From Candidatus Methylomirabilota bacterium (GTDB lineage: Bacteria; Methylomirabilota; Methylomirabilia; Rokubacteriales; CSP1-6): a stretch of DNA of 64,000 nucleotides. Under the pieces are notes generated by a model. The model saw only the letters and a list, made by a program, of their open reading frames with translations. It was not told the DNA's origin and made no database searches. The position numbers were made by a program, and so were the translations under genes. Below are positions 17,695 to 29,149 of this stretch, piece after piece (positions within the stretch are counted from its first letter, which is position 1; every line of letters starts with the position of its first letter). The stretch lies in assembly GCA_035315345.1 (NCBI GenBank), contig DATFYA010000187.1, positions 3,436 through 67,435 of the forward strand. The letters are read 5' to 3'.

Positions 17695-18558
17695 ATGCAA
17701 CGACTGATGGGACTCGTGATGGCGCTGGCGCTGCTCGTGGCCGGGATGTCCCCGGCGCTGGCCCAGCAGAAGAGCACGCTGGACAAGATCGGGGAGACGG
17801 GCACGCTCACCATCGGCACCCGCACCGGCTCGCCGCCCTTCGGCTACGTGAACTCGAAGAACGAGTGGGTGGGCTTCTCGATCGACCTGGTGGAGGAATT
17901 GATCAAGCCCGCGCTGGAGAAGAAGCTCGGCAAGCCGATCAAGGTGGAGAAGAAGGAGAGCACCCCGCCCACCCGCATTCCGCTGATCTCCTCGGGCGCG
18001 GTGGACCTCATCGCCGAGACCATGACCGACACCCGGACCCGCCGCGACAGCGTGGACTTCTCGCTCACGTTCTTCGTGACCGGCGCGCAATTCCTGGTCA
18101 AGAAGGGGAGCCCGATCAAGGGCATCAAGAACATCGACGGCAAGCGCATCGCGGCCCAGCAGGGCTCGACCAACGCGCGCATCATCCGGGAGAAGGCGTC
18201 CAAGGCGGTGCTGCGCGAGTTCCCGGACCAGCCCGCCGCCTTCCAGGCGCTGGTGCAGGGGCAGGTGGACGCCTACACCAACGACGGCATCCAGCTCGCA
18301 GGGCTCAAGGCCAAGTCGCCGAACCCGGCGCAGTGGGAGATCGTCGGCGACATGTTCTCCTACGAGCCCTACGGGATGGCGCTGCGCAAGGGTGACTCCG
18401 ACTTCCGCAACGTCGTCAATGCCGGGCTGATGGAGGGCATCGAGTCGGGCAAGTTCTTCGAGATCTACGAGAAGTGGTTCGGGCCCAACGGCGAGCTGCC
18501 GTACCCGATGTCTCCGCAGGTGCGCTCGTTCATGCTGCTGCAGGTCGTCCCCAAGTAG
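17695..18558 (+). CDS. polar amino-acid ABC transporter substrate-binding protein (family 3 SBP)
   Basis: Signal peptide MQRLMGLVMALALLVAGMSPALA followed by an SBP_bac_3-like body. Strong SD (AAGGAGGAC) precedes the ATG. Confidence 0.85.
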   Translation: MQRLMGLVMALALLVAGMSPALAQQKSTLDKIGETGTLTIGTRTGSPPFGYVNSKNEWVGFSIDLVEELIKPALEKKLGKPIKVEKKESTPPTRIPLISSGAVDLIAETMTDTRTRRDSVDFSLTFFVTGAQFLVKKGSPIKGIKNIDGKRIAAQQGSTNARIIREKASKAVLREFPDQPAAFQALVQGQVDAYTNDGIQLAGLKAKSPNPAQWEIVGDMFSYEPYGMALRKGDSDFRNVVNAGLMEGIESGKFFEIYEKWFGPNGELPYPMSPQVRSFMLLQVVPK

Positions 18559-18562
18559 TCTC

Positions 18563-18668
18563 GTTCCCTCTCCCCGGAGGGGAGAGGGCAGGGTGAGGGG
18601 CTGGCGCCGGCGTGAGTCCGCCCACCCTCACCCCGGCCCTCTCCCGGGAAGGGAGAGGGAGGTGGGCG
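18563..18668. repeat. REP-like compound palindromic element, family A (CCCTCTCCCC-GGAGGGGAGAGGG / GGGTGAGGGG...CCCTCACCCC)
   Basis: Three nested perfect hairpins lie between the SBP stop and the permease start. Related copies occur at 62581..62677 and 63684..63836. Confidence 0.7.
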
Positions 18669-18669
18669 C

Positions 18670-19392
18670 GTGAACTACAAGTTCAACTGGTCGGTGCTGT
18701 GGACCGGCGAGTCCGGTCAGTGGCTGCTGAGCGGGCTCATCACCACGCTCGAGCTGTCGGTGGCCGCCTGGCTGCTCGCGGTGACCCTCGGTGTCGTCTC
18801 CGGCGCGCTGCGCACGGTGCGGATGTGGCCGCTCCGCGCCGCCGCGACCCTCTACGTCGAATTCTTCCGGAACGTTCCGCTGCTGGTCTGGATGTTCTTC
18901 TGGTACTTCGCGGTGCCGCCGTTGCTGCCTCAGGCGGGGCAGGACTTCCTGTTCGCGCACGGGCTCGAGTTCTGGGCCGCGGTCTGCGCGCTGGGCGTGT
19001 ACAGCGGCGCCCGCTTCTCCGAGGTGCTGCGCTCGGGCATCCAGGCGATCCCCAGGACGCAGCTCGAGGCCTCGGTGGCCTCGGGCCTGACCACGTTCCA
19101 GGCCTATCGGTACGTGATCCTGCCGGTGGCGCTGCGGCTCATCATCCCGCCCGGCACCAACGAGTCGCTGAACCTGCTCAAGAACTCCTCGGTGGCCCTG
19201 ACCATCAGCGTGGCCGAGCTGACCTTCCAGACGCGCCAGATCGAGACCTACACCGCCAGGGCCATCGAGGCCCTGACCGCGGGCACCCTGATCTACCTGG
19301 TCCTGTGCGTCTCGATCGCCATTTTCATGTCGTGGGTGGAGCGGCGCACCGCGATCCCGGGCCTCATCGTGGGCGGGCGGCCGCGGCGCTAG
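18670..19392 (+). CDS. polar amino-acid ABC transporter permease (HisQ/GltJ-like)
   Basis: 240 aa, 5 TM helices, with the EAA loop motif (ASGLTTFQAYRYVILPVALR). Confidence 0.85.
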   Translation: MNYKFNWSVLWTGESGQWLLSGLITTLELSVAAWLLAVTLGVVSGALRTVRMWPLRAAATLYVEFFRNVPLLVWMFFWYFAVPPLLPQAGQDFLFAHGLEFWAAVCALGVYSGARFSEVLRSGIQAIPRTQLEASVASGLTTFQAYRYVILPVALRLIIPPGTNESLNLLKNSSVALTISVAELTFQTRQIETYTARAIEALTAGTLIYLVLCVSIAIFMSWVERRTAIPGLIVGGRPRR

Positions 19393-27529: not shown

Positions 27530-29149
27530 TCAGGTCTTCGGCGTCCAGGCTTTGAAGCGCTCTCGCAGCACCTTCTTGTCGAACTTGCCCACGCTCGTCT
27601 TGGGCACCGCCTCGATGAAGACCACCTCGTCGGGCAGCCACCACTTGGCCACCCGCGGCTTGAGGTATTCGTAGATCTCGTCGGTGGTGAGCCGGCCTCG
27701 ATGCTCGGGCTTGGGCACGACGCAGGCCAGCGGCCGCTCCACCCAGCGCTCGTGCGGCACCGCGATGACCGCGGCCTCCAGGACTTTGGGGTGGCCCATG
27801 ATGGTGGTCTCCATGTCCACGCTCGAGATCCACTCGCCGCCCGACTTGATCAGGTCCTTGGTGCGGTCGGTGATCTGGATGTAGCCGTCGGGATCGAGGG
27901 TGGCCACGTCCCCGGTGCGGAACCAGCCGTCCTCGGTGAACTGGGCCGCACCCTCGGGGTTGTTGTAGTAGCCGCTCGTGATCCACGGCCCGCGCACCTG
28001 GATCTCGCCCGCGCTCTTGCCGTCCCACGGCAGGACGGTGCCGCGGTCGTCGACGATTCGCATGTCCACGCCCGCGACGGGAGCCCCCTGCTTGGCCCGC
28101 ACCGCGTAGCGCTCGTCCTCGGTGAGCGCGTCCATGTAGGAGCGCGGACGGCACACGCTGCCGAGCGGGGTCATCTCGGTCATGCCCCAGGCGTGCAGCA
28201 TGTAGGCGCCGTACTTCTTGTCGAACAGCTCGATGAGCGAGCGGGGCGCCGCCGACCCGCCGATCGGGATGCAGCGGATCGAGGAGATGTCCCACTGCGG
28301 CTCTTTGTCGAGAATCGCCTGGATGGCGATCCAGACCGTGGGCACCGCCCCCACCACCGTGACCTTCTCGTGGTGGACGATCTCGATGATGTCGCGCGGC
28401 TGCGGATTCGGCCCGCCGAAGATCTGGGTCGCCCCGTTCATGACGCCCGCGAAGGGCACGCACCACGCGTTGGCGTGGAACATCGGCACGATGTGCAGGA
28501 TCACGTCGCGCTCGCAGATGCCGAGCACGTCCACCGAGGACGAGGCGAAGCAGTGCAGGTAGATCGCGCGGTGCGTGTAGACGACCCCCTTCGGATGCCC
28601 GGTGGTGCCGGAGGTATAGCAGATGCCGGCCGCGTCGGTCTCCTCGATGCGCGGCCACGCGGTCACCGGCGGAGTGCCCGTCACGAGCTGCTCGTAGTCC
28701 AGGGCGCCCGCGGGGATCACCGCGTCCGGGGTGTCCTTCATCACGATGATGTGCTTGACGGTCGTGAGGTCGCGCCGGATGGGCTCGAGAAGGTGCCAGA
28801 GGCTGGCGTCGACGATCAGCACCTCGTCGCCCGCGTGGTTGACGATGTAGGTGATGTCCTGGGCGGAGAGGCGGATGTTGACGGTGTGGAGCACCAGGCC
28901 CATGAGCGGGGCCGCGAAGTAGACCTCCATGTGCCGGTGCGAGTTCCACGCGAACGTCCCGACCCGCGCCCCTTTCTGGAGGCCCAATCCCCGCAGCGCG
29001 CCGGCGAGGCGGCAGACACGGTCGGCGTAGTCGCCGTACGTGTAGCGCTGCAGGCCCACCCCCGGCACGCGCGTGGCCATGGTCTTCCGGTGGAAGAGCC
29101 GGCGCGTGCGTTCGAAGAACTGCGTGAGGGTGAGGGGGTAGTCCATCAT
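27530..29149 (-). CDS. fadD: long-chain-fatty-acid--CoA ligase (FadD-like AMP-dependent synthetase)
   Basis: AMP motif [12 protein letters not shown] plus [15 protein letters not shown] and SGGEWISS. The start was chosen at [14 protein letters not shown] (an alternative ATG lies at 29161). It converges on the M48 stop with a 6-bp gap. Confidence 0.78.

What the first reader, a model, noticed from the sequence alone, without database searches (positions are those of the whole stretch)
18563..18668. REP-like palindromic repeat family A (GGGGAGAGGG / GGGTGAGGGG cores), three copies in the window
A compound element made of three nested perfect hairpins sits between two cistrons of the amino-acid ABC operon. 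Closely related copies occur at 62581-62677 and 63684-63836. Being intragenic in a polycistronic operon, this copy could act as an mRNA stabiliser or attenuator, as classical REPs do. The family appears abundant and mobile, or at least expandable.
Basis: seen in the sequence. Interest (0 to 1): 0.5.

Follow-up and report, generated by a model that had tools for sequence, protein, structure and literature searches.

The report
BoxC-type three-armed repeat doublet
The palindromes between two transporter genes are a copy of the "BoxC/PIT/TMECO" repeat known from E. coli since the 1990s, here in a distant soil phylum and even inside genes; tracing it showed that the same repeat forms the two ends of tiny elements encoding a DUF559 endonuclease, which suggests where this unexplained repeat comes from.

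Summary
The window holds four perfect 34-35 nt units (CCCTCTCCC, loop, GGGAGAGGG, 2-3 nt, GGGTGAGGG) at three sites, against about 0.01 expected by chance. Site 18566-18659 is an inverted pair between the binding-protein and permease genes of an amino-acid ABC operon.

It is not a classical REP. It is the BoxC / PIT / TMECO "intrastrand triplex" repeat: one unit fits the published pattern exactly, and the whole pair aligns to E. coli BoxC pairs. The host is a Methylomirabilota MAG. The same unit occurs in at least 16 phyla.

The other two copies are translated in frame inside imuA and imuB, and all three sites vary strongly between close strains.

New lead: YcjD-type DUF559 (Vsr-fold) endonuclease genes directly abut these units. 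This holds for 7 of 8 genes in unit-selected loci, 16 of 16 genes in DUF559-selected loci, and E. coli ycjD. Terminal inverted repeats made of units flank 11 of 13 genes tested. The third arm covaries with the hairpin as triplex rules predict.

Best reading: a MITE-like derivative of a DUF559 element. At this site it should fold in the mRNA (-82 kcal/mol) and cover the permease ribosome-binding site. That effect, and any mobility, are inferred only. No DUF559 gene was found in this lineage.

The parts
18566..18600 (+). BoxC-type unit in + orientation: pyrimidine arm CCCTCTCCCC, loop GGA, purine arm GGGGAGAGGG, loop CA, third (mirror) arm GGGTGAGGGG. The four G-tracts also fit a G-quadruplex pattern.
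18601..18624 (.). Central spacer of the inverted pair. Its sequence is not conserved between pairs of this family.
18625..18659 (-). BoxC-type unit in - orientation. Read on the - strand it is CCCTCTCCC TTCCC GGGAGAGGG CCG GGGTGAGGG, an exact fit to the published TMECO pattern (type B, CCG loop).
18556..18558 (+). TAG stop codon of the SBP_bac_3 gene (17695-18558), 7 nt before the first helix.
18657..18662 (+). GGGAGG Shine-Dalgarno-like sequence of the permease gene, 7 nt before GTG 18670. Its first four bases lie within the outer helix of the predicted mRNA fold.
   Evidence: start position confirmed by orthologues
18670..19392 (+). First permease gene (BPD_transp_1) downstream of the element.
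62588..62621 (+). Perfect unit inside the 3' part of the imuA-like ORF (62014-62706), translated as LSPLGRGQGEG.
62612..62675 (+). Tandem amplification of the third arm (15-nt period, 4.3 copies), in frame (GEGAE repeats). Copy number differs between related genomes.
63699..63816 (+). Tandem repeat of 33 nt (3.6 copies) carrying the pyrimidine arm, in frame in imuB. Close strains have 1, 2 or 4 copies.
63801..63834 (+). Perfect unit inside the imuB ORF (starts at 62703), translated as PSPLRGEGRVRG. It lies in the linker before the conserved C-terminal domain.

Best explanation
The feature is an inverted pair (+ unit, 24-nt spacer, - unit; 18566-18659) of the BoxC / PIT / TMECO repeat.

Anatomy. 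Each unit has three arms: a pyrimidine arm, its Watson-Crick complement, and a third arm that mirrors the purine arm. As a single strand it can therefore form a hairpin, an intramolecular purine-motif triplex, or a G-quadruplex.

Origin (inferred). The pair is most likely a non-autonomous, MITE-like remnant or derivative of very small elements of 440-660 bp. In those elements the same units, in the same + ... - arrangement, form the two inverted ends around a gene for a YcjD-type DUF559 (Vsr-fold) endonuclease.

Effect at this locus (inferred). The pair is co-transcribed with the ABC operon. In the mRNA it should fold into one long three-helix hairpin that starts 7 nt after the binding-protein stop codon and covers part of the permease ribosome-binding site. 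The expected result is protection of the upstream cistron from 3' exonucleases and reduced translation of the permease, as with REPs in malE-malF and hisJ-hisQ.

Shown: the identity, the anatomy, the distribution, the DUF559 association, the three-arm covariation and the hypervariability. Inferred: the mobility mechanism, the role of the endonuclease and the mRNA effect.
For: Identity:
- One unit fits the published pattern exactly, and three differ only by a 2-nt second loop.
- The 106-nt pair aligns over 93% of its length to E. coli BoxC pairs in 4179 of 5426 genomes. The alx-sstT alignment shows the same architecture.

Distribution:
Almost every hit carries the upstream complementary arm, and many are inverted pairs.

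DUF559 link:
- In unit-selected loci, 7 of 8 DUF559 ORFs overlap a unit.
- In DUF559-selected loci, 12 of 12 close relatives from viral contigs and 4 of 4 from unrelated genomes have units at both ends.
- Terminal inverted repeats of 35-130 nt flank 11 of 13 genes (z 12-51). They are absent from 10 distant relatives (z<3).
- Of 120 diverse DUF559 proteins, 75 end in a unit-encoded tail such as SPSP or PHP..LSP..GRG.
- The stop codon of E. coli ycjD lies in the loop of a degenerate unit. The original BoxC lies about 170 nt downstream, next to a duplicated piece of the ycjD 3' end.

Structure constraint:
- Thirty non-canonical hairpins have third arms that obey all nine triad rules for their own hairpin. 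None obeys the canonical rule, and 6 do so at control offsets.

Local fold:
- -81.6 kcal/mol, z -5.4, with the GGGAGG ribosome-binding site partly in the outer helix and no U-tract.

Dynamics:
- The spacer is 75% identical between strains whose flanking genes are 98-99% identical.
- Orthologous spacers carry none, one or two units, in either order, or another palindrome.
Against: - No DUF559 gene was found in the window or in about 400 kb of related Methylomirabilota contigs. A partner enzyme in this lineage is therefore unproven.
- E. coli ycjD has units only on its 3' side.
- No target-site duplications were seen.
- A lone PD-(D/E)xK nuclease is not a known transposase, so the association could mean something else: homing into units, gene regulation, or processing of the structure.
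- Earlier E. coli work found no promoter or terminator activity and no stable triplex in vivo for these elements (PMC4666352).
- Close relatives manage with a 19-nt spacer and no element (L141), so the mRNA effect, if any, is not needed.
Confidence: 0.55

Rival explanations
1. It is a classical REP/REPIN. On this view the inverted pair is a REP doublet copied by a REP-associated tyrosine transposase (RAYT) encoded elsewhere in the genome.
For: - The repeat is palindromic, interspersed and mostly intergenic.
- It forms an inverted doublet that folds into a hairpin, which is the REPIN definition (PMC3116915).
Against: - The sequence is BoxC, which differs from the REPs that flank E. coli rayT.
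- It has a third, non-palindromic arm that covaries by triplex rules.
- There is no conserved GTAG. The one GTAG, at 18555-18558, overlaps the TAG stop codon and is absent at the other copies.
- tblastn with E. coli RayT finds nothing better than E = 0.65 in the window and 2.4 Mb of element loci.
- The recurrent neighbour is DUF559, not a Y1 transposase.
Confidence: 0.05
2. It is primarily a selected cis-acting RNA element of this operon. An intercistronic hairpin would set the ratio of binding protein to membrane components by blocking 3' exonucleases, stalling terminating ribosomes, or hiding the permease ribosome-binding site.
For: - The fold is very stable.
- The first helix starts 7 nt after the stop codon. 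REPs within 15 nt of a stop codon lower translation in E. coli (cited in PMC12306157).
- The ribosome-binding site is partly paired.
- Of 37 distinct orthologous spacers, 33 hold some strongly folding GC-rich palindrome, of this family or another.
- The position matches malE-malF and hisJ-hisQ (own knowledge).
Against: - Presence, number, order and even family of the palindromes differ between close relatives, and four orthologous spacers are 19-42 nt with no strong hairpin.
- The same element sits in unrelated contexts and inside coding sequence.
- E. coli studies found no regulatory activity.
- This view is compatible with the best explanation as a secondary effect.
Confidence: 0.25
3. It is a non-B DNA (triplex or G-quadruplex) sequence that spreads and varies through replication slippage, recombination and gene conversion alone, with no dedicated enzyme. 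On this view it is a source of local genomic instability.
For: - Holder et al. 2015 linked these motifs to variable loci in E. coli.
- Here all three sites are hypervariable. The spacer is 75% identical against 98-99% for the flanking genes.
- The 15-nt and 33-nt tandem arrays adjoining the units change copy number, and the units are deleted in L128 and L130.
- The mirror-repeat constraint is kept.
Against: - Slippage does not explain the near-identical 35-nt sequence in at least 16 phyla.
- It does not explain the fixed placement of units as inverted ends of DUF559 genes.
Confidence: 0.2
4. These are chance G/C-rich palindromes in a high-GC genome, or an intrinsic transcription terminator.
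For: The genome is GC-rich, and the helices are G/C-rich.
Against: - Shuffles expect 0.00-0.01 occurrences where 3-4 are found.
- Identical units occur in hundreds of loci elsewhere.
- No T-run follows any helix, and the terminator scan finds nothing at the site.
Confidence: 0.01

Closest known systems
BoxC / PIT (potential intrastrand triplex) / TMECO repeats of E. coli and other Proteobacteria (Bergler 1992; Hoyne & Maher 2000-2002; Holder et al. 2015, PMC4666352; Kaplan et al. 2016, PMC5100583)
   Same: - The same three arms with the same 9-mers.
- The same loop sizes for one unit.
- The same inverted pairing of two loop types, 25-30 nt apart.
- The pair can be aligned directly.
- G-quadruplex potential, and variability of the loci that carry it.
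   Different: - The host is Methylomirabilota; the published pattern search reported only proteobacterial genomes.
- Three of the four units have a 2-nt rather than a 3-nt second loop.
- Density is about 1 per 16 kb here, against 23 per 4.6 Mb in K-12.
- Two sites are translated in frame, whereas the E. coli copies are all intergenic.
REP / REPIN elements with their RAYT transposase
   Same: - Short GC-rich palindromes in intergenic space.
- Inverted doublets that fold into long hairpins.
- One or a few enzyme genes flanked by the repeats, set against many orphan repeats. The logic is the same if DUF559 is the partner.
   Different: - The sequence is different.
- There is an extra third arm.
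- There is no GTAG tag.
- No Y1/HUH transposase was found. The neighbouring gene encodes a PD-(D/E)xK Vsr-fold nuclease.
Vsr-fold homing endonucleases (I-Bth0305I, PDB 3R3P) and the DUF559 structure 3HRL
   Same: - The DUF559 profile built here matches 3HRL (E 7e-37).
- It also matches, weakly, the catalytic domain of a mobile-intron homing endonuclease (E 2e-3).
- These are small selfish genes that insert even inside host genes, such as priA in L045.
   Different: - There is no intron or intein context.
- The genes are bounded by structured inverted repeats.
- No activity is known for YcjD-type proteins.
Rickettsia palindromic elements and other MITEs that insert in frame into genes (own knowledge)
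   Same: A short palindromic repeat that is tolerated as an extra peptide segment in proteins. Five of the six reading frames of the unit are open.
   Different: The family and sequence are unrelated. Here the inserted peptide sits in the ImuA tail and the ImuB linker, and is kept across genomes down to 77% protein identity.

Membership tests
BoxC / PIT / TMECO | Sequence pattern CCCTCNCCC N3-6 GGGNGAGGG N3 GGGNGAGGG (Holder et al. 2015) | tested here: met
   The - strand unit 18625-18659 fits exactly. The three + strand units fit except that the second loop is 2 nt (CA or TA) instead of 3.
BoxC / PIT / TMECO | Direct sequence similarity to E. coli copies, including the inverted pair of two loop types | tested here: met
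   blastn of 18560-18665 covers 93% of the query at 76-79% identity in 4179 of 5426 E. coli genomes. The alignment with the alx-sstT pair shows the same layout.
BoxC / PIT / TMECO | Interspersed, multi-copy repeat | tested here: met
   The 64-kb window has 4 units. Related Methylomirabilota contigs have 59 units in 285 kb, though those contigs are centred on a hot spot. The source genome was not scanned as a whole.
BoxC / PIT / TMECO | Strictly intergenic location (as in E. coli K-12) | tested here: not met
   The units at 62588-62621 and 63801-63834 lie in frame in imuA and imuB. The reading frame is kept across length variants, and the conserved C-terminal motifs follow.
BoxC / PIT / TMECO | Third arm able to form purine-motif triads with the hairpin (mirror repeat) | tested here: met
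   The canonical arms obey the C->G, T->A/T rule. Variant families covary in all three arms. Physical triplex formation could not be tested.
REP / REPIN-RAYT | Inverted doublet that forms a hairpin | tested here: met
REP / REPIN-RAYT | Cognate RAYT (Y1 transposase) gene, itself flanked by the repeats | tested here: inconclusive
   tblastn with E. coli RayT gave no hit in the window or in 332 loci totalling 2.4 Mb (best E 0.65). The rest of the source genome was not available.
REP / REPIN-RAYT | Conserved GTAG/GTGG tetranucleotide at the foot of the palindrome | tested here: not met
   It is absent at 62588 and 63801. The GTAG at 18555-18558 overlaps the TAG stop codon.
Intrinsic terminator | GC-rich hairpin followed by a U-run | tested here: not met
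   No terminator-like site at 18560-18670, and no T-run.
G-quadruplex-forming sequence | Four G3 tracts separated by loops of 1-7 nt | tested here: met
   GGG AGA GGG CA GGG TGA GGG at 18580-18599, and likewise at 62602 and 63815. Folding was not tested.
TIR-flanked DUF559 element (proposed here) | DUF559 gene between a + unit and a - unit | tested here: not met
   The window pair has the + ... - arrangement but only 24 nt between the units. No DUF559 homologue is present in the window. It can therefore only be a gene-less derivative.

The most novel reading that the evidence does not exclude
BoxC/PIT/TMECO repeats have had no known function since 1992. On this reading they are the structured terminal inverted repeats, and the MITE-like orphans, of an unrecognised and very widespread class of 0.45-0.65 kb selfish elements.

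The only gene of such an element is a YcjD-type DUF559 Vsr-fold endonuclease. The enzyme would recognise the ends as a folded hairpin-plus-third-strand (triplex-like) structure rather than as plain sequence.

The pair at 18566-18659, and the in-frame copies in imuA and imuB, would then be footprints of that system in Methylomirabilota.
Probability: 0.35. Interest if true: 0.8.

Novelty: new member of a known kind. Interest (0 to 1): 0.6.

Why it matters
By itself this locus is one more copy of a known repeat, in a new phylum and unusually dense.

Three things raise its value:
- Translated, in-frame copies are kept for a long time inside the SOS mutagenesis genes imuA and imuB. This contradicts the "always intergenic" picture from E. 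coli.
- The three arms covary exactly as triplex pairing predicts. This is comparative evidence for a structure that had only been shown in vitro.
- The repeat is tied physically to DUF559/YcjD endonuclease genes in many phyla, including the original E. coli BoxC next to ycjD.

The third point turns a thirty-year-old question (what BoxC elements are and how they spread) into a bench experiment with a named protein and a named substrate. No paper in the searched library makes this link. That library is not complete, so earlier publication cannot be excluded.

Tried and rejected
- Rfam scan of the whole window: no family matched.
- Promoter and terminator scan around the element: nothing at the site.
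- RAYT search by tblastn: nothing.
- Curated phage genomes: no match to the unit. Plasmid matches were mostly rhizobial and Azospirillum chromids.
- Conserved central spacer in pairs: rejected. The spacers are 25-47 nt and unrelated, and the GCCGGC shared with one E. coli pair is chance.
- Target-site duplications around DUF559 elements: none obvious.
- Recurrent neighbour genes other than DUF559: only phage structural genes shared among related viral contigs.
- The first triad contingency table was biased by its own selection filter. It was replaced by the own-rule against canonical-rule test.
- Papers on REP-mediated ribosome stalling: the primary paper was not retrieved, so it is cited only through PMC12306157.

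Full report
**1. What is in the sequence**

Between TAG 18556-18558, which ends an SBP_bac_3 gene (17695-18558), and GTG 18670, which starts a BPD_transp_1 permease, lies a 111-nt spacer. It contains three perfect helices:
- 18566-75 with 18579-88
- 18591-99 with 18625-33
- 18637-45 with 18651-59

Read as repeats, the spacer holds two copies of one unit in inverted orientation. The + unit is CCCTCTCCCC GGA GGGGAGAGGG CA GGGTGAGGGG at 18566-18600. The - unit lies at 18625-18659 and reads, on the - strand, CCCTCTCCC TTCCC GGGAGAGGG CCG GGGTGAGGG.

The two-block motif occurs 3 times in the window against 0.01 expected. The hairpin occurs 4 times against 0.00 expected. A tolerant scan finds exactly four units, all perfect. 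Isolated GGGTGAGGG 9-mers at 29128, 43263 and 45244 are unrelated coding sequence.

Rfam has no match in the window.

**2. The other two copies are inside genes**

The unit at 62588-62621, with a 15-nt tandem array of its third arm (62612-62675), lies in the 3' part of a RecA-fold ImuA-like ORF (62014-62706). That ORF's stop codon overlaps the ImuB start at 62703.

The unit at 63801-63834, preceded by 3.6 copies of a 33-nt repeat (63699-63816), lies in the ImuB ORF. It is translated as PSPLRGEGRVRG.

Evidence from ImuB homologues:
- This peptide sits at the same linker position in homologues down to 77% identity.
- Close strains have 1, 2 or 4 copies of the 11-residue repeat.
- Some homologues have a decayed version.

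Evidence from the DNA of four relatives:
- Perfect units are present in L128 and L129.
- L127 has one mismatch.
- L130, a close relative of L129, has no unit in imuB.
- In imuA, the unit with 15-nt repeats is present in L129 and L130, decayed in L127 and deleted in L128.
- All length variants keep the reading frame and the conserved C-terminal WxLDWTL motif. The element is therefore translated.

Five of the six frames of the unit are open. The two sense frames that are used give LSPxGRGQGEG and PSPxxGEGRVRG.

**3. Which organism**

The ImuB protein is identical to an NCBI entry from a Methylomirabilota (Rokubacteria) MAG. Near-identical soil metagenome contigs carry the same ABC operon.

**4. 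What family it is**

A full-text search for the two 9-mers led to two papers.
- Holder et al. 2015 (PMC4666352) treat the E. coli repeat first called BoxC and then PIT, which they name TMECO. Their pattern is CCCTCNCCC N3-6 GGGNGAGGG N3 GGGNGAGGG.
- Kaplan et al. 2016 (PMC5100583) describe the same element as a G-quadruplex/hairpin switch.

What these papers report:
- 3610 copies in 262 proteobacterial genomes.
- 23 copies in K-12, all intergenic.
- Five inverted pairs that each combine a TTA-loop unit with a CCG-loop unit.
- A stable triplex in vitro but not in vivo.
- No promoter or terminator activity.
- No associated transposase.
- Raised variability of the loci that carry the repeat.

How the window compares:
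- The - unit fits the pattern exactly. The + units differ by a 2-nt second loop.
- The whole 106-nt pair aligns to E. coli chromosomes at 76-79% identity over 93% of its length, in 4179 of 5426 complete genomes.
- The alignment with the alx-sstT pair shows the same layout.

**5. Distribution**

The hits come from Methylomirabilota, Planctomycetota, Acidobacteriota, Chloroflexota, Nitrospirota, Nitrospinota, Verrucomicrobiota, Elusimicrobiota, Omnitrophota, Armatimonadota, Bacteroidota, Cyanobacteria/Melainabacteria, a CPR lineage, Thermodesulfobacteriota, Myxococcota and the Alpha-, Beta- and Gammaproteobacteria.

Almost every hit has the complementary pyrimidine arm 3-7 nt upstream. Inverted pairs of both orders occur. 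Tandem amplification of the third arm recurs in other phyla (L007, L051, L086).

Curated phage genomes have no match. Plasmid matches are mainly chromids. IMG/VR contigs have many matches.

**6. Behaviour at the orthologous site**

Strain comparison:
- L005 and L006 encode the identical binding protein. Their flanking genes are 98-99% identical to the window in DNA, yet the spacer is only 75% identical, with indels. The arm cores are kept apart from a few stem mismatches.

Eighty related loci gave 37 distinct orthologous spacers, 19 to 281 nt long:
- No element (L141, L162, L169, L158).
- A bare hairpin (L139).
- One + unit (L147, L156, L178).
- Pairs in the opposite order, - then + (L137, L143, L148, L154 and others). 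These cannot be derived from the window's + then - pair by inversion.
- A different GC-rich palindrome family (L160, L163, L173, L175).

The site is thus a niche for structured repeats. Its content turns over quickly, and the element is dispensable.

**7. Predicted local effect (inferred)**

As RNA, 18553-18675 folds into one long hairpin of three concentric helices. The minimum free energy is -81.6 kcal/mol, with z = -5.4 against shuffles.

The outer helix pairs 18566-75 with 18651-60. It therefore covers the first four bases of the GGGAGG at 18657-62, which lies 7 nt before the GTG. The first helix starts 7 nt after the stop codon. No U-run follows, and the terminator scan is negative.

By analogy with REPs, three effects are plausible:
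- A 3' exonuclease barrier, as in malE-malF and hisJ-hisQ (own knowledge).
- Lowered translation when a REP lies within 15 nt of a stop codon (as summarised in PMC12306157).
- Occlusion of the ribosome-binding site.

None of these was tested.

**8. Search for a partner enzyme**

E. coli RayT finds nothing in the window or in 2.4 Mb of loci.

I then clustered all ORFs within 1.5 kb of units in 240 loci. One recurrent family overlapped the unit itself, in seven loci from unrelated taxa. All seven are DUF559 (PF04480) proteins. In L045 a DUF559 domain plus a unit are inserted in frame into priA.

An HMM search of all held DNA found 8 DUF559 ORFs, 7 of which abut a unit. The C-terminal tails (SPHPxLSPxGRG) are the unit read in the - orientation.

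Reciprocal test, starting from DUF559 genes:
- All 12 close DUF559 relatives in viral contigs have units on both sides. The 14 distant, AT-rich relatives have none.
- Four more DUF559 genes from unrelated genomes show a + unit upstream and a - unit at or just after the stop codon.
- Upstream and downstream regions form terminal inverted repeats of 35-130 nt in 11 of 13 cases (z 12-51). Ten controls have z below 3.
- The elements are 440-660 bp long, with no clear target-site duplication.

Other evidence:
- Among 120 diverse DUF559 proteins, 75 carry a unit-encoded C-terminal tail. Many come from contigs under 1 kb, as expected for repeats that break assemblies.
- In E. coli K-12 the ycjD stop codon lies in the loop of a degenerate unit. 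The intact BoxC, the original one near fabI/envM, lies about 170 nt downstream beside a duplicated fragment of the ycjD 3' end.
- ycjD is a single-copy accessory gene, present in 3378 of 5426 genomes.
- The DUF559 profile matches PDB 3HRL and, weakly, the homing endonuclease I-Bth0305I.
- No paper in the library links DUF559 or YcjD to these repeats.

**9. Three-arm covariation**

Variant units keep the rule that the third arm mirrors the purine arm: C.G pairs take G, and T.A pairs take A or T. Examples:
- CCTTCTCCC / GGGAGAAGG / GGATGAGGG
- CCCTCCCCC / GGGGGAGGG / GGGTGGGGG
- TCCCCTCCT / AGGAGGGGA / AGGGGAGGT

There are 169 unique non-canonical perfect hairpins in the held DNA. Of these, 30 are followed at the right distance by a 9-mer that obeys all nine rules for its own hairpin. 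None obeys the canonical rule, and 6 do so at control offsets.

This is comparative support for a triplex-like constraint, or for a protein that reads such a fold. It argues against a plain RNA hairpin as the selected feature.

**10. Conclusion**

The finding is real and is a member of the BoxC/PIT/TMECO family, not a REP. The + ... - pair at 18566-18659 has the same end arrangement as DUF559 elements but lacks the gene. I therefore read it as a MITE-like derivative whose presence here is evolutionarily transient. Its main local consequence is likely an mRNA hairpin.

Limits:
- No DUF559 gene was seen in this lineage.
- The way a lone Vsr-fold nuclease could move DNA is unknown.
- All functional statements are inferences.

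Noticed in passing
L045 1774-4404 (Gastranaerophilales MAG): A PriA helicase ORF carries a complete DUF559 domain (aa 235-342), immediately followed by a BoxC unit. Both are inserted in frame between the 3'-DNA-binding domain and the helicase core, much like a selfish insertion.
   Followed up: partly
L160, L163, L173, L175, L182 (orthologous SBP-permease spacers): In these relatives the same spacer holds a different long GC-rich palindromic repeat (for example ...ccgggggcggggggcacactcgctttgctcagtacagcattcgccgcgagcgtaccccccgcccccgg...). It folds at about -0.65 kcal/mol per nt. This is a second repeat family using the same niche.
   Followed up: no
L211, L224, L238, L266 (IMG/VR contigs): In a group of related viral contigs the unit lies inside or at the end of a Mu-type portal protein ORF (PF06074). 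These may be further in-frame copies in phage genes.
   Followed up: no
L362 500-1330 (a 6.5-Mb metagenome contig, between nrdD and a Fer4_12 gene): A DUF559 gene is preceded and followed by tandem arrays of + units with a period of about 75 nt. The TAA stop codon of the gene lies in the second loop of the - unit.
   Followed up: no
window 62014-64000 and L127, L129: The window ends in an imuA-imuB cassette. In relatives it is followed by a dnaE2-type polymerase gene with an intein-splicing domain hit. In L128-L130 a HAD-hydrolase gene follows imuB, lying between imuB and the polymerase gene in L129.
   Followed up: no
E. coli K-12, L333 1400-1620 (minus strand, downstream of ycjD): A stretch of about 45 nt that duplicates the ycjD 3' coding end lies between the degenerate unit at the ycjD stop codon and the intact BoxC. 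This looks like a partial duplication of the element end.
   Followed up: partly
L134, L136, L137, L140, L208 (orthologous spacers): In these relatives the third arm of a + unit runs into GGGGGAGCTCCAC-ATG, so the G-rich arm supplies the ribosome-binding site of the permease. In the window the purine arm of the - unit does this. The G-rich arms resemble Shine-Dalgarno sequences (GGAG/GAGG).
   Followed up: partly
one search hit table: Many DUF559 proteins come from contigs of only 500-2000 nt, and 7997 of 8000 scored candidates pass E 1e-10. This fits a very abundant, multi-copy element that breaks metagenome assemblies.
   Followed up: no
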